A program made the translations under genes and the position numbers. From the sequence record NC_047885.1: DNA of 64,000 bases. One strand, 5' to 3'. The number at the start of each line of letters is the position of its first letter. Positions within the stretch are counted from its first letter, which is position 1. The notes under the pieces are model-generated. The model saw only the letters and a program-made list of their open reading frames with translations. It made no database searches and was not told the DNA's origin. Shown piece after piece: positions 813-30,646 of this stretch. The stretch comes from Escherichia phage chee24.

Positions 813-819
813 AATTGTT

Positions 820-954: not shown

Positions 955-970
955 ATGAATTTTTAATAAA

Positions 971-1092: not shown

Positions 1093-1104
1093 CTTTATAG
1101 TGTC

Positions 1105-1226: not shown

Positions 1227-1347
1227 TTAGATTGTTTTCAGTGCAAGAGTCCGAGTCTTGGACACGACCGCTTCGCAAGTACATAGGCAGCTTATCATGA
1301 GTCAGCACTTCCGAATTGCTAGCTCCGTGTTCTGCACTGAAATTTTA

Positions 1348-1695
1348 TTAGTTTAATCGTAAAGTATTATCTACTTCACCATTAATTGTTCGGCATTCCT
1401 CTGGAATTGCCGGGGTGGCCTTGTATTCCCACCATTCAGCACCGTCATATTCCCCACGTTCTAGCCAAGTTCCATCGGCAAACCATACATTACCATAAAG
1501 TAATTGTCCGCCGTATCCAGAATCATATTCAAAGTCTAGGTTATTAAGAAAATCCTCAATATCTTCTTCTGTATAGCCTAAAGGTAATACCCAGACTTTT
1601 TTGTCCCCATAATACCCAAATTCTATTTTAATACACTTAACTTCAGAATTAGTATTTTTTAAGGCAAGTAACAGCTCTTCTTTAGCATTACGCAT
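1348..1695 (-). CDS. hypothetical protein (115 aa)
   Basis: ORF in the minus-strand gene series; protein-like composition. Confidence 0.5.
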   Translation of the reverse strand: MRNAKEELLLALKNTNSEVKCIKIEFGYYGDKKVWVLPLGYTEEDIEDFLNNLDFEYDSGYGGQLLYGNVWFADGTWLERGEYDGAEWWEYKATPAIPEECRTINGEVDNTLRLN

Positions 1696-1720
1696 AATAT
1701 ATTCTCATACTGAATTAATT

Positions 1721-1797
1721 TGGCGCGACCGATGGGATTTGAACCCACATTCTCTCCCGTGACAGGGGAGTACCATTACCAAGCCAGCCCCGGTCGC
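1721..1797 (-). tRNA. tRNA-Asp (anticodon GUC), CCA encoded
   Basis: Acceptor GCGACCG/CGGTCGC, T-arm ATGGG-TTCAAAT-CCCAT, anticodon stem CTCCC/GGGAG with loop CTGTCAC. Confidence 0.65.
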
Positions 1798-1806
1798 ATA
1801 ATTTAT

Positions 1807-1992
1807 TTACTCAGCTTTGAGTTTTTCAATAGCTGCATTAAGTTCTTTAAGAAACTCTTTTCGTACATTAAGACGATTGAGACTTACTAGTATATCATGT
1901 TTAAGTTCTTCGATGTATTTCTTCTCAACTTCAATATTGTTGATAGTACTATCACGATGAACTTCTAGCTGCGCAATCACATTCTTGGACAT
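1807..1992 (-). CDS. small hypothetical protein (61 aa), predicted coiled coil
   Basis: ORF between tRNA genes; heptad-like charged/hydrophobic pattern. Confidence 0.4.
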   Translation of the reverse strand: MSKNVIAQLEVHRDSTINNIEVEKKYIEELKHDILVSLNRLNVRKEFLKELNAAIEKLKAE

Positions 1993-2094
1993 GCTTGTTT
2001 CCTCAGTTATTAATGAAAATGGTATCTGTGGCTGAATTCGATGTCAGCAATGATAGCTGGTTGGCTACCGGTTTACTTAACTCTACACAGAATT

Positions 2095-2172
2095 TGGCGG
2101 TTCCTGCTGGATTCGAACCAGCAACCCTCAACTTAACAAGATGCCGCTCTAACCAATTAGAGCTAAGGAACC
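2095..2172 (-). tRNA. tRNA, probably Asn (anticodon GUU), CCA encoded
   Basis: Acceptor GGTTCCT/AGGAACC, T-arm GCTGG-TTCGAAT-CCAGC, D-arm GCTC..GAGC; anticodon stem weak so anticodon is tentative. Confidence 0.5.
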
Positions 2173-2667
2173 ATATAAGTCAGAACTAGAGTTAATACGT
2201 CCTAGATATTTACTAAGATCCCTAGAATTTATACTAAACCACTCATGTTCTTTTAAATCTTTGAAATACTGGTGAATTAGTTTTTCACCTTTTCGTTTGT
2301 CAAACCAAAAAGACCAATGCTCTAACTTATAATCCCTATAGGGGGAATAAGTCTGATATTGAGCTAATCTCTCTTTTGGATTTTGACTCATACCTATTTT
2401 ATACTGATTTTTCCATGCAGGATTACTAATACAGTATACAAAACCTTCGGAAATAGGAAGTTTATTTTCCTGCTTAAACTTTATAAAGGAAAGTGCAGCA
2501 AGTTTTCTTGAATACATAGTATTCGTATTCTTTTTGGTATTACCATTGGTTCCTGAAAGATTTATATATTCTTCTATAAATCTCTGGATTAGTTCTGCGG
2601 TTATATAGAAGGGCTCATTAGTAACAACGCCTTTCTTTACCAAACTATCAAAAACTTTTGTATGCAC
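2149..2667 (-). CDS. T5orf172-domain protein (GIY-YIG-like nuclease fold, 172 aa)
   Basis: Motif GFVYCISNPAWKNQYKIGMS...YSPYRDYKLEHW typical of the T5orf172 family; 3' end overlaps the tRNA at 2095-2172. Confidence 0.65.
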   Translation of the reverse strand: MHTKVFDSLVKKGVVTNEPFYITAELIQRFIEEYINLSGTNGNTKKNTNTMYSRKLAALSFIKFKQENKLPISEGFVYCISNPAWKNQYKIGMSQNPKERLAQYQTYSPYRDYKLEHWSFWFDKRKGEKLIHQYFKDLKEHEWFSINSRDLSKYLGRINSSSDLYGSLALIG

Positions 2668-2688
2668 TACTTCTTTCCTTTAGTAATT

Positions 2689-2764
2689 TGGACGACCGCA
2701 TGAGATTTGAACTCACATAAAAAGGATTTGCAATCCTTCGCCTAAGCCATTCAGCCAACGGTCG
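2689..2764 (-). tRNA. tRNA-Cys (anticodon GCA), CCA encoded
   Basis: Acceptor CGACCGT/GCGGTCG, anticodon stem AAGGA/TCCTT with loop TTGCAAA, T-arm GTGAG-TTCAAAT-CTCAT. Confidence 0.65.
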
Positions 2765-2942
2765 ATTTATCTTGTTTTTCGAGATCTTCAAATTCTAAAT
2801 CATTGAAGTTCCCTAGAGTACGGGAGTAGAACCCGTCTCCTACGTCATAGCCTGATTTACCACAATCACACATTTTAAACTCTCTATAACGAGTGAAAAT
2901 ATGTTCAGAACCACAACACTTAAATTTAACTAACATTTTCAT
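2751..2942 (-). CDS. small Cys-rich protein (63 aa), possible zinc ribbon
   Basis: ORF with CC..H and CDC motifs. Confidence 0.45.
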   Translation of the reverse strand: MKMLVKFKCCGSEHIFTRYREFKMCDCGKSGYDVGDGFYSRTLGNFNDLEFEDLEKQDKSTVG

Positions 2943-3181
2943 TTAACACGCTCCGGTAAATCTTCGAGTTTATATTGGGTAGCCACATTAGCAGCATCTA
3001 GTAACAAACCCATATGTTTAAGAATCCTGGTGATAGCCTCGCCTTCTGCTTCTTCTACAAAGCAACGTAGATTAACGAAGTCAATACCACCATCCATACC
3101 AGAGAAAATGTTTAGTAAGCGAAACATTACCAGCTTACGTTCTTTCAATTCTTGTTCTGTCATGTTGCTTCTCCAGTTCAA
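2939..3181 (-). CDS. hypothetical protein (80 aa)
   Basis: ORF start overlaps the stop of the upstream ORF (coupled pair). Confidence 0.5.
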   Translation of the reverse strand: MNWRSNMTEQELKERKLVMFRLLNIFSGMDGGIDFVNLRCFVEEAEGEAITRILKHMGLLLDAANVATQYKLEDLPERVK

Positions 3182-3213
3182 TTTATGTAATTATTATATA
3201 GAACTTTTGGAAA

Positions 3214-3501
3214 CTAAGCAACTACATTTTTTAGGAATTTGATCCCTTTCTTTTTCTTCTTATATTTCCACGTTAATGGATTCTGTCGATTATGAACGCT
3301 TGAGATCTTTGTCTCGTCAAAGTTCTTCAATATCATGTAATCACAGGATAATTGTTCTAGTGGAATGTGATCACCGTCAAAAGCGTATACATAAGGCTGT
3401 TGACTAGCACGATAATGATAGACTTTGTTAATTCTACGTTTCAGCGACTTATCCGCGCAGTAAATAAAGAAGTTTTCAGGATGCATCAGCATCTCCTTCA
3501 A
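3214..3501 (-). CDS. hypothetical protein (95 aa)
   Basis: ORF in the minus-strand series. Confidence 0.5.
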   Translation of the reverse strand: MKEMLMHPENFFIYCADKSLKRRINKVYHYRASQQPYVYAFDGDHIPLEQLSCDYMILKNFDETKISSVHNRQNPLTWKYKKKKKGIKFLKNVVA

Positions 3502-3503
3502 TT

Positions 3504-3578
3504 TGGTGCACCCTGTTCGTATCGAACGAACCTCTCAAGCTCTTCAGGCAAGCGCTAATCCATCTCAGCTAAAGGTGC
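3504..3578 (-). tRNA. tRNA, probably Phe (anticodon GAA), CCA encoded
   Basis: Acceptor GCACCTT/AGGGTGC, D-arm GCTG..TAGC, perfect T-arm GTTCG-TTCGATA-CGAAC; anticodon stem has two U-U mismatches. Confidence 0.5.
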
Positions 3579-3584
3579 AAATTT

Positions 3585-3665
3585 TGGCAAACCCACTAGG
3601 ACTCGAACCTAGACCGTACGGTTTTGGAGACCGACATGCTGTCCAGTAACACTCTAGGAATGCAG
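3585..3665 (-). ncRNA. tRNA-like element with Trp-like anticodon loop (CTCCAAA) but no acceptor-stem pairing
   Basis: T-arm CTAGG-TTCGAGT-CCTAG and 3' CCA present; no complementary 5' strand found within tRNA distance. Confidence 0.3.
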
Positions 3666-3669
3666 AAAT

Positions 3670-3763
3670 TGGTACACCCACGGAGAATTGAACTCCGATT
3701 CTCAGATTGAACTCCGATTCTCAGATTGAAATCCTGATGTCCTAGCCATTAGACGATAGGTGT
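3670..3763 (-). tRNA. tRNA-Glu-like gene (anticodon UUC) with a 19-bp tandem duplication at the variable-loop position
   Basis: Removing one repeat copy gives a 75-nt cloverleaf (acceptor ACACCTA/TGGGTGT, D-arm GTCT-AATGGCTA-GGAC, anticodon stem TCAGG/TCTGA, T-arm CGGAG-TTCAATT-CTCCG); as encoded it is 94 nt. Confidence 0.45.
3687..3730. repeat. perfect 19-bp tandem duplication (ATTGAACTCCGATTCTCAG x2) plus a 6-bp partial third copy
   Basis: Exact copies at 3687-3705 and 3706-3724. Confidence 0.85.
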
Positions 3764-3771
3764 ATTAAATT

Positions 3772-3859
3772 TGGTGGGCGTTAATGGAGTCGAACCACTC
3801 GAGTCGCAATGACCAGGGATTTACAATCCCCTCCGCTACCACTTACGGAATAAACGCCC
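3772..3859 (-). tRNA. tRNA-Tyr (anticodon GUA), long variable arm, CCA encoded
   Basis: Acceptor GGGCGTT/AACGCCC, anticodon stem GGGGA/TCCCT with loop TTGTAAA, 88-nt length with extra arm. Confidence 0.6.
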
Positions 3860-3987
3860 ATATTTAGAAGCATTCAAATACTTGTTTAAACACTTTTAAA
3901 TATGTTTCCGAATTAGATAACTATTATACCAAGTTTTAAGGCACTGAGCAAGTCAAATTTTAAAGAACTTGCTCAGTGCTGTATTAG

Positions 3988-4263
3988 TTAGTCGAACTTA
4001 GGAGTGATAGTTAAGGAGAACGGAAGTTCGAAAACTTCTTCGCCCTCATTACTAACGGTAACTACACGACCTTTAAGTTCAGACATTAAAATATCAATAT
4101 CAGCTTTTGCATCTGGAGCCATGCCAGCTTCAATACATTTAGCTTTAACTTCCGGTAAAAGCTCTACGTTATAGAGATAGAGCCACTCAATCTCACCTTC
4201 CCAGTCTTCCCAGGATTTGCAGATTGCACTTTCAATACCAGTTGCTACAACACGATTTTGCAT
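3988..4263 (-). CDS. hypothetical protein (91 aa)
   Basis: ORF with promoter-like TTGCCT-18-TATAAT (minus sense) at about 4290-4345 upstream. Confidence 0.55.
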   Translation of the reverse strand: MQNRVVATGIESAICKSWEDWEGEIEWLYLYNVELLPEVKAKCIEAGMAPDAKADIDILMSELKGRVVTVSNEGEEVFELPFSLTITPKFD

Positions 4264-4353
4264 TAATTAACTCCTTCATCAATTTATATAACTATTATAC
4301 CAGAAATTTAAAGTAAAAGGCAAGTACATTTTTAAAAATTCTGTTTGGAGGAG

Positions 4354-4560
4354 CTAAACTCCAGATTTTTCGGCCAAGTCTAGACTAATAAGAGTTATAG
4401 CCATAATTGCTGCACCGTGTTCTTTTTCTCCGGTGTTTTTAGCAGAGTCTATAATATCCTTAATCTGTTCGTAATAACTTTTTACTTCTTGTTCAATGCC
4501 TGCCTCGGCTATCATGCCTTTAGCCATGAATCGTTGCATGGTAATTTCAGGATTAGCCAT
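4354..4560 (-). CDS. hypothetical protein (68 aa)
   Basis: ORF; start overlaps the stop of the 4553-4720 ORF. Confidence 0.5.
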   Translation of the reverse strand: MANPEITMQRFMAKGMIAEAGIEQEVKSYYEQIKDIIDSAKNTGEKEHGAAIMAITLISLDLAEKSGV

Positions 4561-4720
4561 GTTGTTTCTCCAGTTTCATTTTTAATAGTTTACAGATGAA
4601 ATCAACGTCTTCATCTGTGCCTAAGTCTCTATCCTCAAGGGTCGCCTTGAAGTTTTTCGTCAATTCCATGAGGATGACTTCCCTAGAACGACGTGTTGGC
4701 GGAGGTGGATGTCTATACAT
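4553..4720 (-). CDS. small hypothetical protein (55 aa)
   Basis: Unlisted ORF below the track cutoff, coupled to the downstream gene. Confidence 0.35.
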   Translation of the reverse strand: MYRHPPPPTRRSREVILMELTKNFKATLEDRDLGTDEDVDFICKLLKMKLEKQHG

Positions 4721-4735
4721 CTTATTTCCTTAATT

Positions 4736-4812
4736 TGGTAGGGGTGGTGGGATTCGAACCCACAAAACCTGAATTTTAAGTCCAGTACCTATGCCAATTC
4801 GATTACACCCCC
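4736..4812 (-). tRNA. tRNA with anticodon UAA (Leu-like, but short variable loop)
   Basis: Acceptor GGGGGTG/CACCCCT, T-arm GTGGG-TTCGAAT-CCCAC, anticodon stem CTGGA/TTCAG with loop CTTAAAA. Confidence 0.5.
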
Positions 4813-5107
4813 ATGTAATCAGTTTATTAGTTGATACATATTATAGCCTAAAGAAAACCCTACTACTAATCCTACGAACCAACCAATATAATAATCTTTT
4901 AATTTCACGGGTGTCAACCTCGTTCAATATCTAGAGAAATACCACAGGTAGGATTAATGCCTGTGCCTTTGCACGTCGGACAAACCCAGATATTACAGAA
5001 TGTATCCCCTGCTTCTGCATCAGAACTTTTCCAACTCCTAGACAGTTAGGACAGGCACATTCTTCTAGCTCTTGCTTGAGTTCTTGAAACTTAGACATAT
5101 AGTTTCC

Positions 5108-5296
5108 TTATTCAATTACTTTTGAGGCTTCAAGGGAGTCGATATAGTGTACGTTTTCTACCATGATCATATAATCTGCCACTTTATCCATAGCCTGAGC
5201 TTCAGAGGTAGCCCTGGCTAACCTATATCCTTTTTTATATTCATCCGGGTATTCCCTATCTGGAATAAACACAACACAAACTAGGTATAGTTCCAC
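5108..5296 (-). CDS. hypothetical protein (62 aa)
   Basis: ORF in the minus-strand series. Confidence 0.4.
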   Translation of the reverse strand: MELYLVCVVFIPDREYPDEYKKGYRLARATSEAQAMDKVADYMIMVENVHYIDSLEASKVIE

Positions 5297-5317
5297 TTGT
5301 AACCTCTCTAATCAAGA

Positions 5318-5395
5318 TGGTGGCTCCCCGAGGATTCGAACCTACGTACCTTCCGGTTATGAGCCGGATGCTCATACCATATGAGCTTGAGAACC
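5318..5395 (-). tRNA. tRNA-Met or Ile2 (anticodon CAU), CCA encoded
   Basis: Acceptor GGTTCTC/GGGAGCC, anticodon stem TCCGG/CCGGA with loop CTCATAA; T-stem imperfect. Confidence 0.55.
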
Positions 5396-5401
5396 AGAAT
5401 T

Positions 5402-5490
5402 TGGCGGAAGAAGTGGGAATCGAACCCACAAGGCTATATTTCAAACCGACAGATTAGCAATCTGCTGCAATACCGTTATGCTATTCTTCC
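5402..5490 (-). tRNA. tRNA-Ser (anticodon GCU), long variable arm, CCA encoded
   Basis: Acceptor GGAAGAA/TTCTTCC, anticodon stem GCAGA/TCTGT with loop TTGCTAA, T-arm GTGGG-TTCGATT-CCCAC, 89 nt. Confidence 0.6.
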
Positions 5491-5505
5491 GAATTTATAA
5501 GATAT

Positions 5506-5534
5506 ATTATATTAGAAATTTAGCTTCATAGCAA
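5506..5534 (-). promoter_or_regulatory. sigma70-like early promoter (minus sense TTGCTA-17-TATAAT) upstream of tRNA-Ser
   Basis: Plus-strand ATTATA 5506-5511 and TAGCAA 5529-5534; same conserved promoter family. Confidence 0.55.
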
Positions 5535-6030
5535 GAAAATTTTTCAAGTTTTCGGTAGACATCTCATCCACATCTACAGGAGAAACAAATCCATTTAATT
5601 GTCTAGCAAATTTTTCACCAGCAGGATCATTATCCCCAACAGCTACCAATTTAAAAGGTAGTAATTTCAATTGCTTTAACAACGCTTTTCCTGGAGAAGA
5701 ACCCAACATTGCCAGGGCTGGATAACCAGCGTTATGTAATGCTACGGCCTTAAATACAGATTCCGCAACCAATACTACTTTTTCATCCCCATTGAGAGTT
5801 TCCAGCCCCCATACACACTGTGTAGTAGAATAAGTAAAATACTTAGCTTCAAAAGGAGATTTACCATGACCTTTTGGAGCAGAAGGATTATAAGTCTGAT
5901 AGCCTCTCAACATCCCAGAGAAGTCATACAATGGGACTGTTAGCCATCCTTCCGGACTTAACCAGCAATGATATTTATCTGTATCAAACCCTCTAGATAA
6001 GAGATGTTCTGTTAGTTCATCAACAGTCAT
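5512..6030 (-). CDS. TOPRIM-domain protein, primase-like paralog lacking a zinc finger (172 aa)
   Basis: VVLVAESVFKAVAL and VAVGDNDPAG motifs (Glu plus DxD) align with the TOPRIM region of the primase at 37630-38520. Confidence 0.55.
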   Translation of the reverse strand: MTVDELTEHLLSRGFDTDKYHCWLSPEGWLTVPLYDFSGMLRGYQTYNPSAPKGHGKSPFEAKYFTYSTTQCVWGLETLNGDEKVVLVAESVFKAVALHNAGYPALAMLGSSPGKALLKQLKLLPFKLVAVGDNDPAGEKFARQLNGFVSPVDVDEMSTENLKNFLAMKLNF

Positions 6031-6058
6031 ATTAGATTCCTCTCAAATTTATAAATAT

Positions 6059-6087
6059 ATTATACAGAGGATTTAGCATTCAAGCAA
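6059..6087 (-). promoter_or_regulatory. sigma70-like early promoter (minus sense TTGCTT-17-TATAAT) for 5512-6030
   Basis: Plus-strand ATTATA 6059-6064 and AAGCAA 6082-6087. Confidence 0.55.
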
Positions 6088-6165
6088 TTGAATTTTTTAA
6101 CTTTTTAGAGGAAAATCACAGGATGCTTACGGGTAGCAGGTAAGTGGTCAGGACCGAAATTTGTG

Positions 6166-6195
6166 ACCCCACTAAAAATCTGGGGTCAATTTTTA
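6166..6195 (+). terminator. rho-independent terminator-like hairpin at the 5' edge of the plus-strand cassette
   Basis: Stem GACCCCA/TGGGGTC with 9-nt loop, followed by AATTTTTA. Confidence 0.5.
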
Positions 6196-6203
6196 AAGAC
6201 CCC

Positions 6204-6232
6204 TTGACATTTTTGCCGGGGTAGTGTAAAGT
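6204..6232 (+). promoter_or_regulatory. sigma70-like promoter (TTGACA-17-TAAAGT) for the plus-strand cassette
   Basis: Consensus -35 at 6204-6209, 17-bp spacer, -10 TAAAGT 6227-6232, AGGAGG RBS at 6280. Confidence 0.6.
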
Positions 6233-6295
6233 ATATGTTATGGATGAGTGATCAAAGAGACACACATTTTCTATATACTAGGAGGTGTCAAAAAA

Positions 6296-7275
6296 TGACA
6301 GAAGAAGTAGCTAAGAGTCCTGAAACCGTCGCTAGCGTAGCAGCAGAACTGCATCGTCACGAGGAATCAGATAAGAAAAAGTGGGAGAAAGTCAAAGCCT
6401 ACGAAGAAGAACATCGTGAACACGATGATAAAGATGAAGAAGATGACGATGATGAACATTGTCATAAATATGGAAAACATAAAATGCAAGAACCAGTAAA
6501 CGTATTTACTAATGGCTTCCCTGGCATGGGTGCATTCCCAGCTAACGCAAGTGCTTTCGGTGGAGAAGGTATGGGTCTATTCGGAGCTATCCTAATCGGT
6601 GCTCTATTAACAGGCGGATTTGGTGGTTTTGGTGGTTTTGGCCGTGGTGCTGGCGTTGCCGCTGAAGGGACTGCTGTGGACGCGATCCTTTCTAACCAAG
6701 ATACTGCAAGTATTCTAGCTGCAATCAATACTACTCGTACAGAAGCTAACCAGGGCACTGGGGCTGTTCTAAGCGCAGTAAACGGTGTGGGAGCTGCTCA
6801 AGCTGCTAGCACTCAGCAAGTTCTGACTACTATCTACGGTACAGGTGCTAATCTGTCAAACCAGATCTGTGCTGAAACTCGTAACGTTATTCAGGGTCAG
6901 TTCGATCTTTCTCGTCAGATGGATCAATCTTTCGCTGCTAACCAGATCGCACGTGCTCAAGATAAGTTTGACTCTGCTCAGATTGCTTTCCAGCAGTCTA
7001 TTCAGACCAATAACCAGTTTGCCGCTGTTCAGGCTCAGATGTGTGCTAACCAGAATGCTATAGAGCGTCAGCTTGCTGAATGTTGCTGTGAACTTCAGAC
7101 TGCGATCGCTGGTGTAACTACTGCGCGTATCCAGGACGAACTGAATGAATGCCGTCTGCGTGAAGCAATCGCTCAAGGTAGTGGTGCTAACGGTCAGGTA
7201 ATTAACCAAATCGCTGTAAGTCTTGGTGCTATCACTCAGACTCTGGCTGGTCTGCAGGCTAAACTGCCGGCTTAA
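6296..7275 (+). CDS. hypothetical protein (326 aa): acidic N-terminus, Gly-rich hydrophobic segment, Gln/Ala-rich C-terminal half
   Basis: Track ORF 6235-7275 trimmed to the ATG at 6296 behind AGGAGG; segment GMGLFGAILIGALLTGGFGGFGGFG looks like a glycine-zipper membrane helix; codons look more GC-rich than neighbours. Confidence 0.6.
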
Positions 7276-7296
7276 AATTAAGGGGAGGAGCCCATT

Positions 7297-7713
7297 ATGA
7301 GTAAATATGGTTTTGTAAACAACGGATTTAATCAACAAATGGGCTCCCAGCAGCCCGTTCCGGGTCTGGATAATCCTTACCTACAACAGTTGCAACAGCG
7401 TTTAGCAGAAGCGCAACAGATGCAGCAACAACTCCAGCAAAACCCTGGAAGTGTGAGTCCTATGCAAATGATGCAGCAAATGAGCGGGCAGTCGCAAATG
7501 CCTCAACAAATGCAGCAACAGGTGCCTCAGCAGCAAGTTCAGCAACAAACCCAACAACCGCAGGTTTCTGCGGAAGGACAGGCAGTACTAGCTCTTTTCG
7601 AAGATTTCGCAAAGACAGAGGATGGGAAACAGCTTGTATCACTTATGGGTAAGTTTAATAGCTTCTGCCAAAGCCAGGTTGCAAAAGCTCAAAATGGTGA
7701 TAATAACTCCTAA
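7297..7713 (+). CDS. Gln-rich low-complexity protein (138 aa)
   Basis: ATG behind GGGGAGGAG RBS; long QQ(M/L)QQ tracts. Confidence 0.55.
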   Translation: MSKYGFVNNGFNQQMGSQQPVPGLDNPYLQQLQQRLAEAQQMQQQLQQNPGSVSPMQMMQQMSGQSQMPQQMQQQVPQQQVQQQTQQPQVSAEGQAVLALFEDFAKTEDGKQLVSLMGKFNSFCQSQVAKAQNGDNNS

Positions 7714-7722
7714 GGAGGAATT

Positions 7723-7917
7723 ATGTGTTGCAGAAAATCTGTTTCGTGCTGCCCAATGCCTGTAGCACGTTGTTGCTCTCCAGCAATGTTTACACAAATA
7801 CCGGCGTTCAATCCCTTTGCCTTTAAGCCTACTCTTATCCTGCCCCCTAGAGTAGATTTTCAGTCAAGATTGGCCTCCCGTATGGGTGGTTGCTGTAACA
7901 AGAGTATATGGTTCTAA
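7723..7917 (+). CDS. small Cys-rich protein (64 aa) with four Cys-Cys doublets
   Basis: ATG behind AAGGAGG RBS; sequence MCCRKSVSCC..RCCS..GGCCNK. Confidence 0.5.
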   Translation: MCCRKSVSCCPMPVARCCSPAMFTQIPAFNPFAFKPTLILPPRVDFQSRLASRMGGCCNKSIWF

Positions 7918-7933
7918 AGAACCAATAATAAAA

Positions 7934-7966
7934 AGCCCCTAGTCGAAAGACTTAGGGGCTTTTCTC
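7934..7966 (+). terminator. rho-independent terminator ending the plus-strand cassette
   Basis: Stem AGCCCCTAGTC / GACTTAGGGGCT with GAAA loop, followed by TTTTCTC. Confidence 0.7.
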
Positions 7967-7975
7967 TTATCTTAA

Positions 7976-8014
7976 ATACAGAAAAGCCCTGCGCTCTCCA
8001 GGGAACGCAGGGCT
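7976..8014 (-). terminator. rho-independent terminator downstream of the SPFH gene
   Basis: Stem AGCCCTGCG/CGCAGGGCT; minus-sense T-tract from plus AGAAAA. Confidence 0.6.
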
Positions 8015-8038
8015 TACTTCGAATATTACGTGTGGGTA

Positions 8039-8986
8039 TTACTTGTTACGCATATCCATAATCATCTGGCCATCATAACCAGTGCCAACCACAGTCTGCG
8101 GTACACCACCTTGATACTTCTGAGCACGAATCATTTCAACTTCTAGTTGCTTCCAGCGAATCATCTCAGGAGTAATGGTACGTTGCAGAGCAGCGTTAGC
8201 TTCAGCTTCTTTCTTAGCTGCATACAGTTTAGCATCTGCATCACGTTCGTTTGCAATAGCTTGGTTGTTACGAGCTTCACGATCTGCTTCTGCTTGTTTA
8301 ACCTTCTGCTGTGCTTCTTGTTCAACGCGAGCTAATTCAGCTTTCGCAGCATTAACTTGTTCTTCGCGAACTTTGGTATTCTGTACCTGTTCCATAATTA
8401 CCGGTGGCAATGTAATATCCTGAAGGAACACTTGCTTAACTGTGTAACCATAGGGGCGTGCATACTCTTCAACTTCCTGTTGAATTGCAGTTTGCAATTG
8501 TGCTTGAATTTTAGCATCAAACAAATCTTGTGCTTTAGGTACAGACTTACCAAACTCACGAATAGTAGACAGTAATTTTTCAGTTACATACTTATCTAGA
8601 GCCTGATCTTGAGTACCCGCATTAATACGGTTGATCGGTGCCTTAGAACCATCAAACTGCAACATAACAGTCAGGTCAACAGTGGATTTAAACTTATCCT
8701 GGCTAGGAACCTGAAGTTTATCTAATTTTACAGCAATATCTTTTGTACTAAAAGTATCGAAAGATGCAAATGGGTTTACAAGATGGAAACCAGGTAATAC
8801 TGGGTTAGGATCTACTTTACCTAGAAATGTTTGGGTTTTAACCGTACCATCAGAAACAATAGTATATGAATTAAAAGCTAGGATTAAACCTGCTAAACCA
8901 ACTACAGCACCAATACTCCAACGTTTAATAGTGCGAATTACTTTTTGCTCAGAAGTCAGTTCTTTCATATTTTTAGTATTAGACAT
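8039..8986 (-). CDS. SPFH/band-7 (prohibitin/HflC-like) membrane protein (315 aa)
   Basis: N-terminal membrane anchor (WSIGAVVGLAGLILAF), SPFH-like core, long Ala/Glu/Gln-rich coiled-coil C-terminus. Confidence 0.65.
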   Translation of the reverse strand: MSNTKNMKELTSEQKVIRTIKRWSIGAVVGLAGLILAFNSYTIVSDGTVKTQTFLGKVDPNPVLPGFHLVNPFASFDTFSTKDIAVKLDKLQVPSQDKFKSTVDLTVMLQFDGSKAPINRINAGTQDQALDKYVTEKLLSTIREFGKSVPKAQDLFDAKIQAQLQTAIQQEVEEYARPYGYTVKQVFLQDITLPPVIMEQVQNTKVREEQVNAAKAELARVEQEAQQKVKQAEADREARNNQAIANERDADAKLYAAKKEAEANAALQRTITPEMIRWKQLEVEMIRAQKYQGGVPQTVVGTGYDGQMIMDMRNK

Positions 8987-9020
8987 ATATTTCCTTTGTT
9001 TTAGTTACAGTTAATAAAAT

Positions 9021-9095
9021 TGGCCGAGGTGACAGGATTCGAACCTGCATAAAGGAATTTAGAAGACTCCTGCCTCTCCCTTAGACTACACCCCG
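9021..9095 (-). tRNA. tRNA-Arg (anticodon UCU), CCA encoded
   Basis: Acceptor CGGGGTG/CACCTCG, anticodon stem GGAGT/ATTCC with loop CTTCTAA, T-arm GCAGG-TTCGAAT-CCTGT. Confidence 0.6.
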
Positions 9096-9597
9096 TTTAA
9101 GTATTTTTAAGAACTCTCGTAAAAACTCTTAAAAATACAGACGATACCGGGAGAGTCATAAGTCTCACTCATTAAGTATTTCAAGACAAAATACAGTAAC
9201 GTCTATTATTTTCCAGTTTAAGTCAAGGTGACTTAGTGGTTATGTCCTGCGGTATACTGAGGACTAGGTTAGGTTAGGGTCATGACTCCCCACCTTTTTG
9301 CTGCTACTCAACAGGAGTTATCGCGAATTACCTGTGCTATTGTGCACCATTAGTGGCATCTCTCATGCCAGCATTTCCCACTTTGTGGATAGTTTGAAAA
9401 ACTACTCCGATATGGAGAAAGAACTTCACTATCCTAGAATACCTTCTAAAGTTCTTCTTTAGCCTGGACATAGTTAAATCGTAATAAAACTATTCAGCAG
9501 ACTGGTTGGTTAGTCTGGAACCAACTACCGCGTGGTTTAGGCAGTGCGCAACTAACCTCGGAAGCTTTTACATTAAAAGCACCAGTTATCCAGTTCT

Positions 9598-9670
9598 TAC
9601 CGACCGTAGGATTCGAACCTACATCTTCCACCAGTTACGGCTTGATAATACCGTTTTATACTAGATCGGC
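9598..9670 (-). ncRNA. tRNA-like element (canonical acceptor stem and T-arm, irregular core)
   Basis: Acceptor GCCGATC/GGTCGGT and T-arm GTAGG-TTCGAAT-CCTAC; no standard anticodon arm identified. Confidence 0.3.
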
Positions 9671-9893
9671 AGTGTTACTACATAAGTGATTTCCACACCC
9701 CACTATCAGTAAATTAGAGAAGAGTTTAGGGGAGAGGTTTCAGACGCCCCATTTTACACGTTCTAGCCACTAACCGGGATTGCCGCCCCCTGTGTACTAG
9801 TTTTCCAACTAACCCACCGACTCTATTCAATGCGCTCCGGTTGGGATTCTGCACTCAGCGTAATCGGCTCGCTGTTCTCTAATTTATGAATAT

Positions 9894-26844: not shown

Positions 26845-27237
26845 ATGGAACAAGTATATTGGCGTCAGATTGACCCTAGTTTGGTGAAACGTGCGGAGAA
26901 GCTGCTACAACGTTGGTTGGGGGTAAGACAAGTCTCCTTCACTTTTCCGGAGCAGCAAACGGATGATCCATGCATTGGCGTTTTCCTGTCTGGATATGCC
27001 GGGGAATGGGAATTGGATTGGAATGAATTGTCTGCTATGGGCTTGATTGTTGCCCTAAACTTCTCTTTGTTCCATCCACGTGGTTTGGCCATATGTCGTG
27101 TGCCTGATGATGGTTGTTCGCCCCATCTTTTACAGGTGGAAGATGATATTTGGGAGTACACTCCAGATATTCTCACAGAAGCTAAAGAACAATTAAATCG
27201 TGTTGGGATTTATGTTCCGGGCTTAAATGATGAATGA
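26845..27237 (+). CDS. hypothetical protein, paralog B of a tandem pair (130 aa)
   Basis: GGAGG RBS; paralogous to 26407-26835. Confidence 0.55.
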   Translation: MEQVYWRQIDPSLVKRAEKLLQRWLGVRQVSFTFPEQQTDDPCIGVFLSGYAGEWELDWNELSAMGLIVALNFSLFHPRGLAICRVPDDGCSPHLLQVEDDIWEYTPDILTEAKEQLNRVGIYVPGLNDE

Positions 27238-27260
27238 TTTTTATTAGCTGAACTCTGATT

Positions 27261-27286
27261 ACCGAGTCATTTTGGCTCGGTTTTAT
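27261..27286 (+). terminator. weak terminator-like hairpin after the paralog pair
   Basis: Stem ACCGAG/CTCGGT followed by TTTTA. Confidence 0.4.
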
Positions 27287-27328
27287 CCGTACTCAAGACC
27301 AATGATAGCACCATCCGGAAAATTTTAC

Positions 27329-27357
27329 TTGCATGATGCCCAAAATCTTGATATAAT
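27329..27357 (+). promoter_or_regulatory. sigma70-like promoter (TTGCAT-17-TATAAT)
   Basis: -35 27329-27334, -10 27352-27357. Confidence 0.55.
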
Positions 27358-27856
27358 ATTTATATTGAATTGAGAGACATTAGTAAAAATTGATTTTGCT
27401 AATTTTTCTTGTTTACAATCCGCGATACGGAACAGTTAGGCTGCCCCATTAAGGGTTGTTTTAACTGTTACGTGTTAGTTTTTAAACAAATAGTTAATAG
27501 AATACTTAGCGATCTGCGTCCCGTAGGAACCCTGGTAAGGCCTCGAAGCAACCTAGATAGAGGTGGTTGTGAAGTGAGACGGGAGGAGTGAAAAACTCCG
27601 AGACGTGATTCTGTAAGTTATATTGCATCTAGTATGAGCTAGTATATGAAGCATTAGGTGAGCAAATCTGGCTTAGCGGCCATCCTCAAGGATTTGTGCG
27701 GTATAGCAAAGCAGCAGCGCAGCGTGAAAGTGGAAGTTGCCACCCCACTTCAGTATTTGCGATTAATTTGTTGAGAAATTGACAGTAACAGTTGTTCTAT
27801 TCTTTCTGAATAGTCCTAAAGAAAACTTATTTCATTTCCAACACAGGAGTATTGTT

Positions 27857-30646
27857 GTGTTTTCAATCCTACAAGGTCATGCAGGATTTCATCGCGATTT
27901 AGCCACAGGCAATTGGCGAGAAGTTAAAGCAGAAGATTATCTTTTTGCTAAAAGATTTTCCTCAAAGCATCCTGAAGGTAAACCAGCTTCAATGCCCTTC
28001 AAGTTTGATGTAATTGACGAAGTTGATCCTCAAACCCTAGTAGAAATGCTTCCTCTTATGAGACGTTTAACGTCTGACCCTCATATCGTTGCGGTACGAG
28101 GTCGATGTCTTGCACCTAAAAATAATGTGCGACGTAAGAAGGGCAACTTTAATGTATCTAATCCAAGTCATATAATCGCAATGGATGTGGATGGTATTGT
28201 AGATACAGGAGGTTGTAACAAGTTTGATCTTGTTGGCATGGCGCGTCATATTATTAGGATGTTGAATAGTATTAGTGAGGATATGTTTCCTCTTGATGCA
28301 GGGTTTATTGCTCATGCATCATCTTCGGCTGGACTAAAACCAGGTATCCGAATGCACTTAATACTAGAATCTAATGTTAAAGTTACACAGGGCCAGATCA
28401 AGTTCTTATTTACATCTATCAACGAAAGTAGTAGACAAAAGTATGGTTTTGATATTGCCGACTTAGCTTATTACTCTTCCGTACAGCTCCACTATTTTGC
28501 AGATCCTTTATTTACTGATGGTATAGTTGATCCGTTTAAAGCGGAGAGTGCTTCACGTCTGGTATTTGTTAAAGGCTCAAAAGTAAATTTACCTAATAAT
28601 CTAGTTGACTATGAAACAACTAGAGGAGAGTTTAAAGAGGAATTCTACTCTTTACTCGATCAAATTAAAGGTAAAAAAGCTGCCTCTGATAAAGTAGAGG
28701 AAACTATCAGTGAGCTAGAAGAGGCTGATGATGGGGTATACTTACGTATTATTCCAAAGCTATATCACCGAGCGTTAGAGGATGGGGTAGATTTTGGTTG
28801 GCTAGAGAAAGAAATCCGCCCAGCTTTATCAGAATATATTGCAACTAAAGATAATAGCCGTAATATTCAGGATTATTTCAATAACGGACGGAAGCAGGCA
28901 TTAAAAGCCTTTGTGAATAACTCTAAGCGTGAGATCCCTGAAGTATTAAAAGGTATCCCCCTTAAAAAGCTAGAAACTAACTCACTAGAGACCGACAACT
29001 TCTTGAAATTAAATACTGTACCACCAGAAGGCTATATGACTTTTGTAAAAGCAAGTCTAGGTACAGGTAAAACCACGGCTGTTGTTCGTTGGCTGGATTC
29101 AGGGGTTATTAAAGGTAATTTCTTAGCAATTACCAATACTAGGGCACTAGTGTCTTCAAATGCTAAGAAATTTAGCGCAGGTCAATATGATAAATCTGTA
29201 GATATGCTCAACTTTAAACGTGGGGCTATTGATCGTATGTCCACAACCATTCACTCTTTGCATAAGTTTAAGAGTTTTATTGGTCAAATTGATGCAATCT
29301 TTATAGATGAATGTGATGCAGTAATGAATGACCTATTATTCGCCCCGGTTGTTAAGCAACGTCGCGAGTGTATTCAGGTTCTTCGAGATATTCTTGCAAC
29401 TGCAAAAATAATTATATTATCTGATGGAGATATTAGTGCAGAAACAATTGAAGCATATGGTTCTTTGATTGAGTTTGATAAACCAGTTGCATTTTACAAT
29501 CACCACCGTAAAATGTTATCAAAGGCTCATGCTTATGAGTTTCCTGATGAATCCAGTATTTGGGTTGCACTTCAAACATCACTAGAGATGGGTGAGAAAT
29601 CTATTCTAGTATCTGATTGTGGCCCTGATGAGCTGAATGAGAAGGGTATGGCACTACGTCGTAATACTGGTGCGTTAGTTAAGGAAATCCATTCAAACTC
29701 TACCTCAGATGTGGATATTCGACGTATTCTGGATTATACAACTAATGAGCTAATTGATCAACAAATTGATTGCTTATTATGTAGTCCATCCGTAACGAGT
29801 GGTGTTGACTTCAACTATTTTGATAACGTATTCGTTATTACTAGAACCAGTAATCAAGCGCCAAACATGCGTTTTCAAGCAATCAGGCGCGACCGTGGTG
29901 CTCAGAACATCTATTATTTTATTGATAAATCCACTAGTGGATTCTCCGCAGGTTCTGAACAATATAATATTGATGAAGGTTGGCTGGAGTTAGCACAGCA
30001 ATTATACGCACGTCGCAGGGAGCTGGAATCTAGAAACTATACTAGTACCTTACGTTATTACTTGCTTGATCAGGGTGCAACTATTGATATTTTCAGCGAA
30101 AGCTGGGGAACTATTGAAGGTGCTGGTAAAGAGTACACAGAAGAGCGAATCAAAGCTATTCTACATTCAACCCCGGATTATTGTGCTCCACGTCATGCGG
30201 ATGCGTATGAAGCTAAACTACTTCTTGTTCGCTATTATCATCTTGAGTCTATTAAAGATGTAACAGTTGAGCATGTTGAACAATATATCAAAGATAAACC
30301 GAATGATCGAGCTGCATTCTTCCATAAGATGCACGAGATGTTCTGGGAAGATATTAAGAAGTGTTCAAATATAACCATTAAACCATTCATAGAAGCTCTA
30401 AAAGGTAAGAAAAAGGACTTCTTCCTTAAAACAGGTCAGAGTGCTAACCCAAAATATGCTAGAATGTATCTTGGTATGATGGGTATCGGTAAGGATATGA
30501 ACACTGAAAATATCGTAGACTGGTATAGAACCTACTGCAAAATCGAGTGTATGCCAATTCCTTATAAGTTCATGACTGATGAGGAAAAACATATGCACGA
30601 TGAAGCAATGTCAGAACTAGGTGCTAGAAATGACAGTGAAGAATAA
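27857..30646 (+). CDS. large P-loop NTPase, helicase-like (about 929 aa)
   Basis: Walker A SLGTGKTT and Walker B-like IFIDECD; start set at GTG 27857 behind ACAGGAG because the track start 27779 is a TTG inside a TTGACA-like motif. Confidence 0.65.
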   Translation: MFSILQGHAGFHRDLATGNWREVKAEDYLFAKRFSSKHPEGKPASMPFKFDVIDEVDPQTLVEMLPLMRRLTSDPHIVAVRGRCLAPKNNVRRKKGNFNVSNPSHIIAMDVDGIVDTGGCNKFDLVGMARHIIRMLNSISEDMFPLDAGFIAHASSSAGLKPGIRMHLILESNVKVTQGQIKFLFTSINESSRQKYGFDIADLAYYSSVQLHYFADPLFTDGIVDPFKAESASRLVFVKGSKVNLPNNLVDYETTRGEFKEEFYSLLDQIKGKKAASDKVEETISELEEADDGVYLRIIPKLYHRALEDGVDFGWLEKEIRPALSEYIATKDNSRNIQDYFNNGRKQALKAFVNNSKREIPEVLKGIPLKKLETNSLETDNFLKLNTVPPEGYMTFVKASLGTGKTTAVVRWLDSGVIKGNFLAITNTRALVSSNAKKFSAGQYDKSVDMLNFKRGAIDRMSTTIHSLHKFKSFIGQIDAIFIDECDAVMNDLLFAPVVKQRRECIQVLRDILATAKIIILSDGDISAETIEAYGSLIEFDKPVAFYNHHRKMLSKAHAYEFPDESSIWVALQTSLEMGEKSILVSDCGPDELNEKGMALRRNTGALVKEIHSNSTSDVDIRRILDYTTNELIDQQIDCLLCSPSVTSGVDFNYFDNVFVITRTSNQAPNMRFQAIRRDRGAQNIYYFIDKSTSGFSAGSEQYNIDEGWLELAQQLYARRRELESRNYTSTLRYYLLDQGATIDIFSESWGTIEGAGKEYTEERIKAILHSTPDYCAPRHADAYEAKLLLVRYYHLESIKDVTVEHVEQYIKDKPNDRAAFFHKMHEMFWEDIKKCSNITIKPFIEALKGKKKDFFLKTGQSANPKYARMYLGMMGIGKDMNTENIVDWYRTYCKIECMPIPYKFMTDEEKHMHDEAMSELGARNDSEE

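What the first reader, a model, noticed from the sequence alone, without database searches (positions are those of the whole stretch)
27358..27856. Long leader of about 500 nt between a promoter and the large NTPase gene, with a non-ATG start
After the promoter at 27329-27357 there is no plausible coding frame until a GTG at 27857 preceded by ACAGGAG. The track's start at 27779 is a TTG inside a TTGACA-like motif, and the 60-aa frame at 27409 has no RBS. The leader looks locally GC-richer than its surroundings and carries several hairpins, which suggests a regulatory RNA, a small RNA gene, or an attenuator.
Basis: partly seen in the sequence, partly recalled or inferred. Interest (0 to 1): 0.5.

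Follow-up and report, generated by a model that had tools for sequence, protein, structure and literature searches.

The report
Large structured RNA in phage leader
The 500-base untranslated stretch in front of the replication helicase gene of this T5-like phage folds into a large RNA structure that evolution has kept intact, and it matches no described RNA family, so it is very probably a new functional RNA and not spacer.

Summary
The window is a T5-like phage (100% identical to T5-like pork27). A T5 early promoter (27329-27357) is followed by about 490 nt with no conserved ORF. The gene of the T5.108-type "origin-binding" helicase starts at GTG 27857, not at TTG 27779.

The leader is not a small RNA or a simple attenuator. 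About 330-390 nt of it form a multi-helix RNA domain of at least 14 helices, closed by a stem of about 31 bp (27462-27495 with 27761-27794).

- **Covariation:** base pairing is kept while the sequence drifts to about 45% identity between the window type and the T5 type. In a curated set 98% of 2026 cells pair and 56 of 67 pairs change on both sides. G-U outnumbers A-C 193 to 7, so the + strand RNA is the selected molecule.
- **Independent tests:** covariance models seeded only with window-type sequences recovered the Klebsiella, Pectobacterium and T5 lineages. 0 of 500 shuffles reached the observed covariation.
- **Known families:** Rfam 15 gives no match in any lineage, and the literature searches found nothing.

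Function is inferred, not shown. I favour a leader-embedded RNA, probably processed at the long stem, that controls or accompanies expression of the replication gene. The rivals are a trans-acting RNA, an origin primer RNA and a riboswitch.

The parts
27261..27286 (+). Terminator hairpin (ACCGAGTCA/TGGCTCGGT) plus T run that ends the upstream operon
   Evidence: Inverted repeat I14. Homologous to the terminator annotated in T5, 58952-58976.
27329..27357 (+). T5 early sigma-70 promoter (TTGCAT, 17 nt, TATAAT). Transcription start inferred near 27364.
   Evidence: Sequence. T5 annotation of the homologous site. The same TTGC..N17-19..TATAAT is found in all Enterobacterales lineages.
27371..27411 (+). 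5'-terminal extended stem-loop (inner stem 27379-27388 with 27394-27403) followed by a U-rich tract. Possible 5'-end protection or a weak attenuator.
   Evidence: Folds. The stem sequence differs but still pairs in the Pectobacterium and Klebsiella lineages (read). Function is inferred.
27425..27449 (+). Ultra-conserved element AUACGGAACAGUUAGGCUGCCCCAU, predicted unpaired. GGCUGC 27439-27444 is complementary to GCGGCC 27676-27681, so a pseudoknot is possible.
   Evidence: Identical in window and T5. Near-identical in My1, DU_PP_V and Klebsiella phages. No discriminating covariation for the pseudoknot.
27462..27794 (+). Closed RNA domain. P1 is a long closing stem of about 31 bp, 27462-27495 with 27761-27794 (P1a 27462-71/27785-94, P1b 27473-83/27774-84, P1c 27485-95/27761-72).
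   Evidence: Found by the column-pair scan and by single-sequence folds of six lineages. It is the only helix RNAalifold recovers on the unfitted alignment. 85.6% paired, 12 pairs with double changes.
27514..27722 (+). P2, a long-range helix: CUGCGU 27514-27519 with GCGCAG 27717-27722. It encloses the core junction.
   Evidence: Six different pairing versions in six lineages. 98.3% paired on the unfitted MAFFT alignment. Two double compensatory changes occur inside the window-type group.
27520..27599 (+). 5' sub-domain: P3 27520-23/27580-83, a three-way junction with P3a 27525-43 (GNRA-like tip) and P3b 27548-53/27565-70, then P4 27585-88/27596-99 with an A-rich loop.
   Evidence: Model R3, seeded with window-type sequences only, finds L093, DU_PP_V and My1 (E 6e-14 to 8e-5). 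98% paired, 11 of 20 pairs changed on both sides, 0 of 500 shuffles.
27600..27609 (+). Conserved joining strand GAGA(A/C)GUGAU
   Evidence: Conserved in the window type, L093, DU_PP_V, My1 and Klebsiella lineages.
27611..27714 (+). 3' sub-domain: P4a 27611-14/27711-14; P5 27617-26/27698-707; P5a 27627-31/27655-59; P6 27662-69/27690-97; P6a 27670-72/27679-81, capped by the invariant loop UUAGCG 27673-27678.
   Evidence: Models R1 and R2. 94.9% and 92.4% paired, 21 and 28 of 30 pairs changed on both sides, 0 of 500 shuffles, slid controls 32-47%. My1 was found without being in the seed (E 6e-6).
27728..27750 (+). P7 hairpin AAGUGG/CCACUU with the conserved loop RGUUGCCAYC
   Evidence: Compensatory U-A to G-C change within the window-type group. 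Different stems in the Klebsiella, My1 and T5 types.
27797..27813 (+). P8 hairpin CUAUUC/GAAUAG, inside a pyrimidine-rich tract that follows P1
   Evidence: 90.6% paired. Covaries in L093, DU_PP_V and Klebsiella phages.
27810..27817 (+). AUAGUCCU, complementary at 7 of 8 positions to the Shine-Dalgarno region AGGAGUAU 27845-27852. This pairing excludes P8.
   Evidence: Read from the sequence. UCCU/AGGA was listed. Thermodynamic modelling shows no change in SD accessibility with or without the domain, so a regulatory role is unproven.
27779..27781 (+). TTG that opens the longest ORF. It is not the start codon and lies in the 3' strand of P1.
27845..27859 (+). Shine-Dalgarno AGGAG (27845-27849) and the true start codon GTG (27857-27859)
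27857..30646 (+). Gene of the T5.108 homologue (929 aa), the 'replication origin binding protein': an SF2 helicase related to herpesvirus UL9, with a conserved N-terminal domain of unknown fold.
   Evidence: Pfam Herpes_ori_bp, PHROG 3712, PDB UL9 matches.

Best explanation
**Shown here.** The gap is the 5' leader of the early mRNA of the T5.108-type replication helicase gene. Most of it is a previously undescribed, large, conserved RNA fold. It has a 5'-terminal stem-loop and an invariant single-stranded element. A domain of about 333 nt (27462-27794) is closed by a stem of about 31 bp and holds a junction of at least 12 further helices, including a hairpin with the invariant loop UUAGCG. Selection acts on the + strand RNA, not on a protein frame and not on double-stranded DNA. 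The family occurs in T5-like phages of Escherichia, Salmonella, Klebsiella, Pectobacterium and Providencia, and probably Proteus.

**Inferred, about 40-45% likely.** It works in cis, as part of the transcript.
- The long AU-rich stem P1 is the kind of helix that host RNase III cuts. Cleavage there would separate the folded core from the helicase mRNA and give that mRNA a new 5' end about 60-70 nt before GTG 27857, beginning near hairpin P8.
- The ornate core and the invariant elements serve as a binding platform, most economically for a phage replication protein such as the T5.108 product itself.
- Together these would set the stability and translation of the replication gene early in infection.

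None of these steps is demonstrated.
For: **Layout**
- T5 has the same layout, with the start codon annotated at the homologous GTG.
- 536 phage records hold the region.

**Not coding**
- No ORF is conserved in the leader, and the start codon is fixed by homology.

**Structure**
- Curated count over 32 distinct sequences of 6 lineages: 67 pairs, 98.2% standard pairs, 56 pairs with changes on both sides. Slid controls give 35-46%. G-U 193 against A-C 7.
- Within two groups whose members are over 90% identical, where alignment is trivial: 12 double compensatory changes, 6 wobble-preserving changes and 3 disruptions.
- Covariance models seeded with window-type sequences only recover other lineages at the homologous place. 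My1 is an out-of-seed hit.
- The count of structure pairs gives 0 of 500 shuffles on A7, A8 and A10.
- On a sequence-only MAFFT alignment of the whole domain, 82.7% of cells pair against 36-46% when slid, and 52 of 93 pairs change on both sides.

**Conservation pattern**
- The core is 45-60% identical between window and T5, about as diverged as third codon positions of the adjacent gene (65%). The promoter plus 5' leader is over 96% identical and the 3' flank 93%.

**Cis link**
- No terminator lies between the domain and the gene.
- The domain sits directly upstream of the gene in every lineage.
- P1 is at least 25-31 bp in all lineages.
Against: - No expression, processing or structure-probing data were available, and no T5 transcriptome paper was found.
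- Modelling shows the same SD and start-codon accessibility with or without the domain, so a translational switch is not supported.
- In Proteus phages (Stubb type) a consensus TTGACA-18-TATAAT promoter lies between the RNA region and the gene. The gene therefore need not depend on the leader there.
- In Vibrio and Aeromonas relatives a terminator-like hairpin precedes the gene, although homology of their leaders is not shown.
- The fold is more elaborate than any known protein-binding operator needs to be.
- Cross-lineage alignments of the core were partly hand-curated or model-fitted, which leans towards the structure.
Confidence: 0.5

Rival explanations
1. A trans-acting stable non-coding RNA that only rides in the leader. 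After excision at P1, or as a read-through product, the ~300-nt core acts elsewhere. It could be part of a ribonucleoprotein, a decoy or sponge for a host factor or defence system, or a scaffold like the phage-borne ornate RNAs GOLLD and ROOL.
For: - Its size and complexity are typical of large stand-alone RNAs.
- A long closing stem is how stable RNAs such as rRNA precursors are excised (established knowledge).
- Proteus phages have a separate strong promoter for the gene, downstream of the RNA region.
- Terminator-like hairpins lie between leader and gene in Vibrio 70E34-1a and Aeromonas TS3.
- The invariant loops (UUAGCG, GUUGCCAYC) look like recognition surfaces.
Against: - In the window and in T5 there is no terminator or promoter between the RNA and the gene.
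- The position directly upstream of one gene is kept across deep divergence (57% protein identity).
- No second copy and no relative occurs outside T5-like phages.
Confidence: 0.3
2. An origin-of-replication transcript. The strong early promoter makes a structured pre-primer RNA, as with ColE1 RNA II or the T4 and T7 origin transcripts. It would form an R-loop next to the gene of the initiator helicase and prime or open the T5 origin.
For: - A ~500-nt untranslated structured transcript from a strong promoter lies directly upstream of the 'origin-binding' helicase gene.
- The locus lies at 59 of 121.75 kb, the middle of the T5 genome. From my own recollection of the 1970s electron-microscopy work, not checked here, first-round replication starts near the middle.
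- The core is variable while its structure is kept. This recalls the specificity regions of ColE1-type RNA II.
Against: - There are no iterons or significant direct repeats.
- There is no antisense promoter in the leader.
- The cumulative GC-skew minimum of the window is at about 22 kb, where gene orientation switches, not at 27.4 kb.
- Covariation with abundant G-U pairs shows selection on the folded RNA, but it says nothing about priming.
Confidence: 0.12
3. A very large riboswitch or other ligand- or tRNA-sensing leader that couples helicase synthesis to a metabolite such as the nucleotide pool.
For: - A conserved structured domain lies in a 5' UTR.
- A pyrimidine tract after P1 contains AUAGUCCU, complementary to the SD region, and this pairing excludes P8.
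Against: - No riboswitch family matches at E up to 10 or in other lineages.
- At about 330 nt with at least 14 helices it is far larger than known aptamers.
- The predicted SD accessibility is unchanged by the domain.
- The anti-SD pairing is not conserved outside the T5-like flank.
Confidence: 0.06
4. Nothing functional: a spacer with chance hairpins, or small unannotated proteins, as some GenBank records annotate.
For: - Some records call 'hypothetical proteins' inside the leader.
- A single-sequence fold z-score of -3.4 alone would be weak evidence.
Against: - The ORFs are broken in close relatives and absent in other lineages.
- The compensatory changes and shuffle controls exclude chance.
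- The flanks are more conserved than the neighbouring coding sequence.
Confidence: 0.02

Closest known systems
Large 'ornate' bacterial and phage non-coding RNAs (GOLLD, ROOL, OLE, raiA; Rfam families; cryo-EM in PMC12286853)
   Same: - Several hundred nucleotides and many helices.
- Strong covariation with a few invariant loops.
- GOLLD and ROOL are often phage-encoded.
- Function unknown at discovery.
   Different: - No covariance-model match to any of them.
- Smaller, at about 330-390 nt.
- Sits inside the 5' leader of one specific gene, not next to tRNAs.
- Found in virulent T5-like phages of Enterobacterales.
RNase III processing stems (rRNA precursor stems; T7 early mRNA sites R1-R5; lambda N leader)
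   Same: A long helix of at least 20 bp, irregular and AU-rich, is formed by sequences that flank a functional RNA or precede a gene on an early phage transcript.
   Different: - T7 and lambda sites are simple hairpins of about 60 nt. Here the stem encloses a conserved core of about 260 nt.
- Cleavage has not been tested.
ColE1 RNA II, and the T4 oriF/oriG and T7 primary-origin transcripts
   Same: An untranslated transcript of about 500 nt from a strong promoter lies next to replication functions. For RNA II, the structure is conserved while the sequence varies.
   Different: - No antisense RNA promoter, no AT-rich unwinding element and no iterons were identified.
- An origin position is not supported by skew.
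Autogenous translational operators of phage replication proteins (T4 gene 32 pseudoknot, T4 gp43 operator) and ribosomal-protein leaders
   Same: A structured 5' leader of a replication gene. The favoured mechanism here is feedback through protein binding.
   Different: - Those operators are 20-100 nt.
- No evidence yet that the T5.108 protein binds RNA.
Riboswitches and T-box leaders
   Same: A cis location upstream of the SD, with a possible alternative pairing that involves the SD.
   Different: - No family match.
- Much larger.
- No ligand clue.

Membership tests
Any Rfam 15 family (4227 models, including GOLLD, ROOL, OLE, HEARO, RNase P, group I/II introns, riboswitches, T-box) | A covariance-model score at or above the family's gathering threshold | tested here: not met
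   - No hit in the leader at gathering thresholds.
- Only chance snoRNA and pseudoknot hits with E above 2 at the permissive threshold.
- Nothing in the leaders of 12 related loci.
tRNA / tmRNA | Cloverleaf or tmRNA detected by ARAGORN | tested here: not met
   All 15 tRNAs lie at 468-9671. None lies at 27200-27900.
Independent small RNA gene | Own promoter | tested here: met
   Promoter at 27329-27357, homologous to the promoter annotated in T5.
Independent small RNA gene | Own terminator before the next gene | tested here: not met
   No terminator-like site at 27358-27856. T5 annotates none.
Intrinsic-terminator attenuator | A G+C-rich hairpin followed by a U run between promoter and gene, with a competing antiterminator | tested here: inconclusive
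   - The consensus scan finds none.
- An AU-rich 5' stem-loop (27379-27403) is followed by UUUUUCUU. In folds, that tract pairs with UGAGAGA 27371-77.
Riboswitch | A conserved structured aptamer in the 5' UTR | tested here: met
   Covariation-supported domain.
Riboswitch | An expression platform whose alternative pairing controls the SD or a terminator | tested here: inconclusive
   - AUAGUCCU 27810-17 is complementary to the SD region and excludes P8.
- SD accessibility is unchanged in models.
- The pairing is not conserved in other lineages.
Riboswitch | Specific ligand binding | not testable with these tools
   Needs in-line probing or ITC.
RNase III processing site | A double-stranded helix of about two turns or more | tested here: met
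   P1 has 10 + 11 + 7 + 4 bp separated by single bulges in the window. It is at least 25 bp in all six lineages.
RNase III processing site | Cleavage in vivo that depends on rnc | not testable with these tools
   Needs 5'/3'-end mapping in wild-type and rnc hosts.
ColE1 RNA II-type primer / origin transcript | An antisense regulator (RNA I-like promoter on the opposite strand) | tested here: not met
   No promoter-like site on the - strand within the leader.
ColE1 RNA II-type primer / origin transcript | Replication starts at the 3' end of the transcript | not testable with these tools
   The GC-skew minimum is at about 22 kb, but it is confounded by gene orientation.
Small protein gene(s) | A reading frame conserved among relatives | tested here: not met
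   - Premature stops and frameshifts occur in close relatives.
- No shared ORF exists across lineages.
- L024 has no ORF of 25 aa or more.

The most novel reading that the evidence does not exclude
A new class of large phage RNA that is cut out of the helicase leader and takes part directly in starting or controlling T5 DNA replication. It could be a partner or regulator of the T5.108 primase/helicase-like initiator, or a lineage-specific origin primer RNA. That would make RNA-guided control of replication initiation a feature of a classical virulent phage whose origin has never been defined.
Probability: 0.2. Interest if true: 0.85.

Novelty: categorically new. Interest (0 to 1): 0.72.

Why it matters
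- **A rare kind of find.** New large structured RNAs are rare, and each one found so far (OLE, GOLLD, ROOL, raiA) opened a line of work.
- **A tractable system.** This one sits in T5, a genetically tractable model phage. It lies in front of the gene thought to start T5 replication, so its function can be tested directly by deletion, compensatory mutants, rnc hosts and pull-downs.
- **Applied phages.** T5-like phages are used widely for biocontrol and therapy against E. coli, Salmonella and Klebsiella. An unrecognised conserved RNA in their replication module is relevant to engineering them.
- **Annotation.** The start codon of the helicase should be GTG 27857, and the 'hypothetical proteins' that pipelines call inside the leader are artefacts.
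- **Structure determination.** The fold is a good target: about 330 nt, with many natural sequence variants.

Tried and rejected
- **Rfam** at gathering and permissive thresholds, in the window and in 12 related loci: nothing.
- **Small ORFs in the leader:** rejected.
- **Upstream TTG start:** rejected.
- **DNA-level origin features** (direct repeats, iterons, antisense promoter, skew): not found.
- **RNAalifold on mixed-lineage MAFFT alignments:**
  - It recovers only P1 or a blurred consensus.
  - The core is too diverged for sequence-only alignment, so lineage-aware curation and covariance models were used instead.
- **The raw column-pair covariation scan** was noisy in U- and G-rich sequence. 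Only P1 and P6 stood out.
- **An outer helix 'P0'** (UUUUUCUU 27403-10 with AAGAAAA 27819-25) was considered.
  - It was dropped as unproven, because both tracts are low in complexity.
  - The U tract pairs instead with UGAGAGA in the 5' stem-loop.
- **A pseudoknot between GGCUGC 27439-44 and GCGGCC 27676-81** is possible. The only covariation there (My1 GAC/GUC) favours the local hairpin P6a.
- **A degenerate pattern scan of IMG/VR** (GAGAAGTG..CTTAGCGG) gave 120 loci, but only two were real family members when screened with the model.
- **The metagenome scan** added only close relatives.
- **Models R2 and R3** found nothing convincing in Serratia Kamaji. R2 also found nothing in Vibrio or Aeromonas T5-like phages. 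Their long leaders may hold unrelated or very diverged RNAs.
- **A switch in SD accessibility** is not supported by thermodynamic modelling.
- **Literature searches** for a T5 leader RNA, a T5 transcriptome or a T5 origin gave nothing relevant. The anti-retron 'Rad' of T5-like phages is a protein in the tRNA region and is unrelated.

Full report
**What the window is.** The region 27230-27900 is 100% identical to Bacteriophage T5-like pork27. It matches 536 phage records, almost all T5-like phages of Salmonella, Escherichia and Klebsiella. The window also carries 15 tRNA genes, typical of T5. In the annotated T5 genome (AY543070) the homologous stretch has four features: a terminator (58952-58976), a promoter (58999-59073), about 470 unannotated bases, and then T5.108, 'putative replication origin binding protein', starting at 59545.

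**Checking the observation.**
- The longest ORF opens at TTG 27779, but that codon is not the start.
  - The T5 annotation uses the homologous GTG.
  - In 31 related loci the protein match begins exactly at this codon, which is ATG in Klebsiella phages and GTG elsewhere among these loci. AGGAG lies 7-9 nt upstream in each.
  - Six other lineages have in-frame stop codons 3-21 nt upstream, and nine of the fourteen other loci have one within 42 nt.
  - The TTG is missing in a close relative (L012) and in T5.
- The two small frames in the leader are not genes.
  - The 60-aa frame is interrupted in 10 of 17 close relatives.
  - The 38-aa frame is frameshifted in four.
  - No frame is shared between lineages, and one T5-type leader has no ORF of 25 aa or more.
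- The leader is GC-richer (0.43-0.47) than its flanks.
- It folds better than all 100 shuffles, z = -3.4.

**What is really there.**
- Aligning window and T5 shows an odd pattern. The terminator, the promoter and the first ~108 nt of the leader are nearly identical. The next ~313 nt are only 45-60% identical, although of equal length. The last ~70 nt before the start codon are again conserved.
- The diverged block is bracketed by an inverted repeat, 27462-27471 with 27785-27794.
- More distant relatives have the same arrangement, with yet other sequences in the middle block. These are Klebsiella Sugarland-like phages, Pectobacterium My1 and DU_PP_V, a metagenomic lineage L093, Providencia PR1 and Proteus Stubb.
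- All of them share the short motif CUUAGCGG, and its flanking stem differs in sequence from lineage to lineage.

Read lineage by lineage, the block folds into one common architecture:
- **P1:** a long closing stem of about 31 bp.
- **P2:** a long-range helix, 27514-19 with 27717-22.
- **5' sub-domain:** P3 as a three-way junction with P3a and P3b, then the hairpin P4.
- **Joining strand:** the conserved GAGAAGUGAU.
- **3' sub-domain:** P4a and P5, with the branches P5a and P6/P6a. P6a carries the invariant loop UUAGCG.
- **Hairpins:** P7 inside P1, and P8 just outside it.

**Is it more than chance?**
- *Curated count.* Helix tables for six lineage representatives were transferred to 32 distinct sequences.
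  - 1990 of 2026 cells (98.2%) are standard pairs.
  - 56 of 67 pairs change on both sides.
  - Sliding the partner by 1-3 nt drops pairing to 35-46%.
  - G-U pairs outnumber A-C 193 to 7. This means the + strand RNA is the selected molecule, not the complementary strand and not a DNA cruciform.
- *Within-group changes.* Cross-lineage curation can lean towards a structure, so I also counted only changes inside the window-type group and inside the T5-type group. Members of each are over 90% identical and align trivially. There are 12 double compensatory changes, 6 wobble-preserving changes and 3 disruptions.
- *Covariance models seeded with window-type sequences only.*
  - The 3' sub-domain model found L093 (E 4e-11), DU_PP_V (2e-5), the Klebsiella group (about 5e-5) and the T5 type, all at the homologous place.
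  - Rebuilt from those hits, it found My1, which had never been in a seed (E 6e-6), and PR1/PSTCR5 (E about 0.01-0.1). With filters off it found Proteus Stubb (E 0.06).
  - The 5' sub-domain model found L093, DU_PP_V and My1.
- *count of structure pairs on these alignments.* It gives 94.9%, 92.4% and 98.0% paired. 21 of 30, 28 of 30 and 11 of 20 pairs change on both sides. 0 of 500 shuffles reach the observed covariation, and slid controls give 27-49%.
- *Unfitted alignment.* On a plain MAFFT alignment of the whole domain, the full 93-pair structure gives 82.7% paired against 36-46% slid. 52 pairs change on both sides and 0 of 500 shuffles reach that. P2 is 98.3% paired and P3 100%.
- *RNAalifold* on that unfitted alignment recovers only P1. 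This shows how diverged the core is.

**Rates of change.** The core differs between window and T5 about as much as third codon positions of the adjacent gene, which are 65% identical. The promoter plus 5' leader (over 96%) and the 3' flank (93%) are far better conserved than that. The core therefore behaves as sequence free to drift as long as pairing is kept. The flanks and a few loops are constrained in primary sequence, as expected for contact surfaces. One oddity remains: the window-type core is closer to L093 (64%) and DU_PP_V (57%) than to the T5 type (45%), although the proteins say the opposite. This hints at exchange of the core between phages.

**Comparison with what is known.**
- No Rfam 15 family matches at any threshold, in the window or in 12 related loci.
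- ARAGORN finds no tRNA-like gene here.
- Full-text searches for a T5 leader RNA, a T5 transcriptome, a T5 origin or structured RNAs in T5-like phages gave nothing relevant.
- A pattern scan of IMG/VR, screened with the model, found no member outside T5-like phages.
- In size and complexity the closest things are the large ornate RNAs (GOLLD, ROOL, OLE, raiA). It is not a member of any of them, and unlike them it lies in the 5' leader of one specific gene.

**How it probably works (inference).**
- *What is shown.* It is an RNA-level element on the early transcript of the helicase gene. In the window and in T5, no terminator or promoter separates it from that gene.
- *The processing step.* P1 has two near-continuous turns of AU-rich helix plus more. 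RNase III cuts helices of this kind in rRNA precursors and in T7 early mRNAs. I therefore think processing at P1 is likely. It would free a core of about 300 nt and leave the helicase mRNA with a short 5' end that begins near hairpin P8.
- *The role I favour (about 40-45%).* The element acts in cis on the stability or translation of the replication gene, probably through a bound protein. The reasons are its strict position upstream of this gene in all lineages and the lack of an own terminator.
- *Against a simple switch.* Modelled accessibility of the SD and the start codon is the same with and without the domain.
- *Trans-acting RNA (about 30%).* This is favoured by the extra consensus promoter between RNA and gene in Proteus phages, and by terminator-like hairpins before the gene in some Vibrio and Aeromonas relatives.
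- *Origin primer RNA (about 12%).* This is attractive because of the neighbouring 'origin-binding' helicase and the mid-genome position. But no iterons, no antisense promoter and no skew signal are present.
- *Riboswitch (about 6%) and 'nothing' (about 2%)* are unlikely.

**Limits.**
- No expression or probing data were available.
- The model-size cap forced separate models for two sub-domains. P1, P2, P7 and P8 rest on the curated count and on the unfitted alignment.
- Only about 40 of the more than 500 available genomes could be fetched.
- Homology of the long leaders in Serratia, Vibrio and Aeromonas T5-like phages is open.

**Verdict.** This is a well-supported and apparently undescribed large structured RNA family, in the replication module of a model phage, and its function is unknown.

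Noticed in passing
window 468-9671 (- strand): A cluster of 15 tRNA genes. The last one (9597-9671) is called tRNA-Ser with the unusual anticodon ACT and scores only 34.5 bits.
   Followed up: no
L011 (IMG/VR copy of Salmonella phage SP3), about 97 nt inserted at the position of window 27410: A 97-nt insertion in the 5' leader, directly after the 5' stem-loop, flanked by a repeat of TTTTTCTT. The rest of the RNA is intact.
   Followed up: no
L026, about 100 nt upstream of its leader promoter; window 27319-27379: The module 'early promoter + UUGAGAGA + 5' stem-loop' occurs twice in tandem in L026. The promoter part also matches two places in Klebsiella T5-like genomes, so it is a reused early-promoter cassette.
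   Followed up: partly
window 27390-27419: A second sigma-70-like site lies inside the leader (TTGATT, 18 nt, TACAAT). It would start transcription just before the invariant AUACGGAACAGUUAGGCUGC. It is not kept as a promoter in the Pectobacterium or Klebsiella lineages.
   Followed up: partly
window 27472-27784 compared with T5 (L016): The core of the RNA comes in two forms among otherwise near-identical T5-like phages (window type and T5 type, about 45% identical). The break points lie in P1a. The window type is closer to the cores of more distant phages (L093 64%, DU_PP_V 57%) than to T5, which suggests exchange of the core by recombination.
   Followed up: partly
GenBank PP735124 (L002 1539-2041); OZ196902 (L038 808-1432): Annotation pipelines call three to five small 'hypothetical proteins' inside the leader. 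In the T5-type leader these frames are not conserved, so they look like artefacts.
   Followed up: partly
L035, L036, L037, L038, L039 (Serratia Kamaji; Vibrio JSF12, Achelous, 70E34-1a; Aeromonas TS3): Long ORF-poor stretches of 0.43-1.3 kb also precede the helicase gene in other Demerecviridae subfamilies. The Vibrio group shows conserved islands and hairpins of differing sequence. 70E34-1a and TS3 have a terminator-like hairpin about 100 nt before the gene. My models do not detect homology to the T5-type RNA.
   Followed up: partly
L069/L070 (Proteus phage Stubb / PM135 type), about 66 nt before the gene: A perfect-consensus promoter (TTGACA, 18 nt, TATAAT) lies between the RNA region of about 700 nt and the helicase gene. 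A second one lies at the start of that region.
   Followed up: partly
window about 22000: The cumulative GC skew of the window has its minimum at about 22 kb, where gene orientation switches from - to +. That is 5 kb upstream of the leader.
   Followed up: no
window 27857-28756: The N-terminal ~380 aa of the 'origin-binding' helicase match no Pfam or PDB entry but are well conserved (motifs IIAMDVDG, HASSSAG). The fold and activity of this domain are unknown.
   Followed up: no
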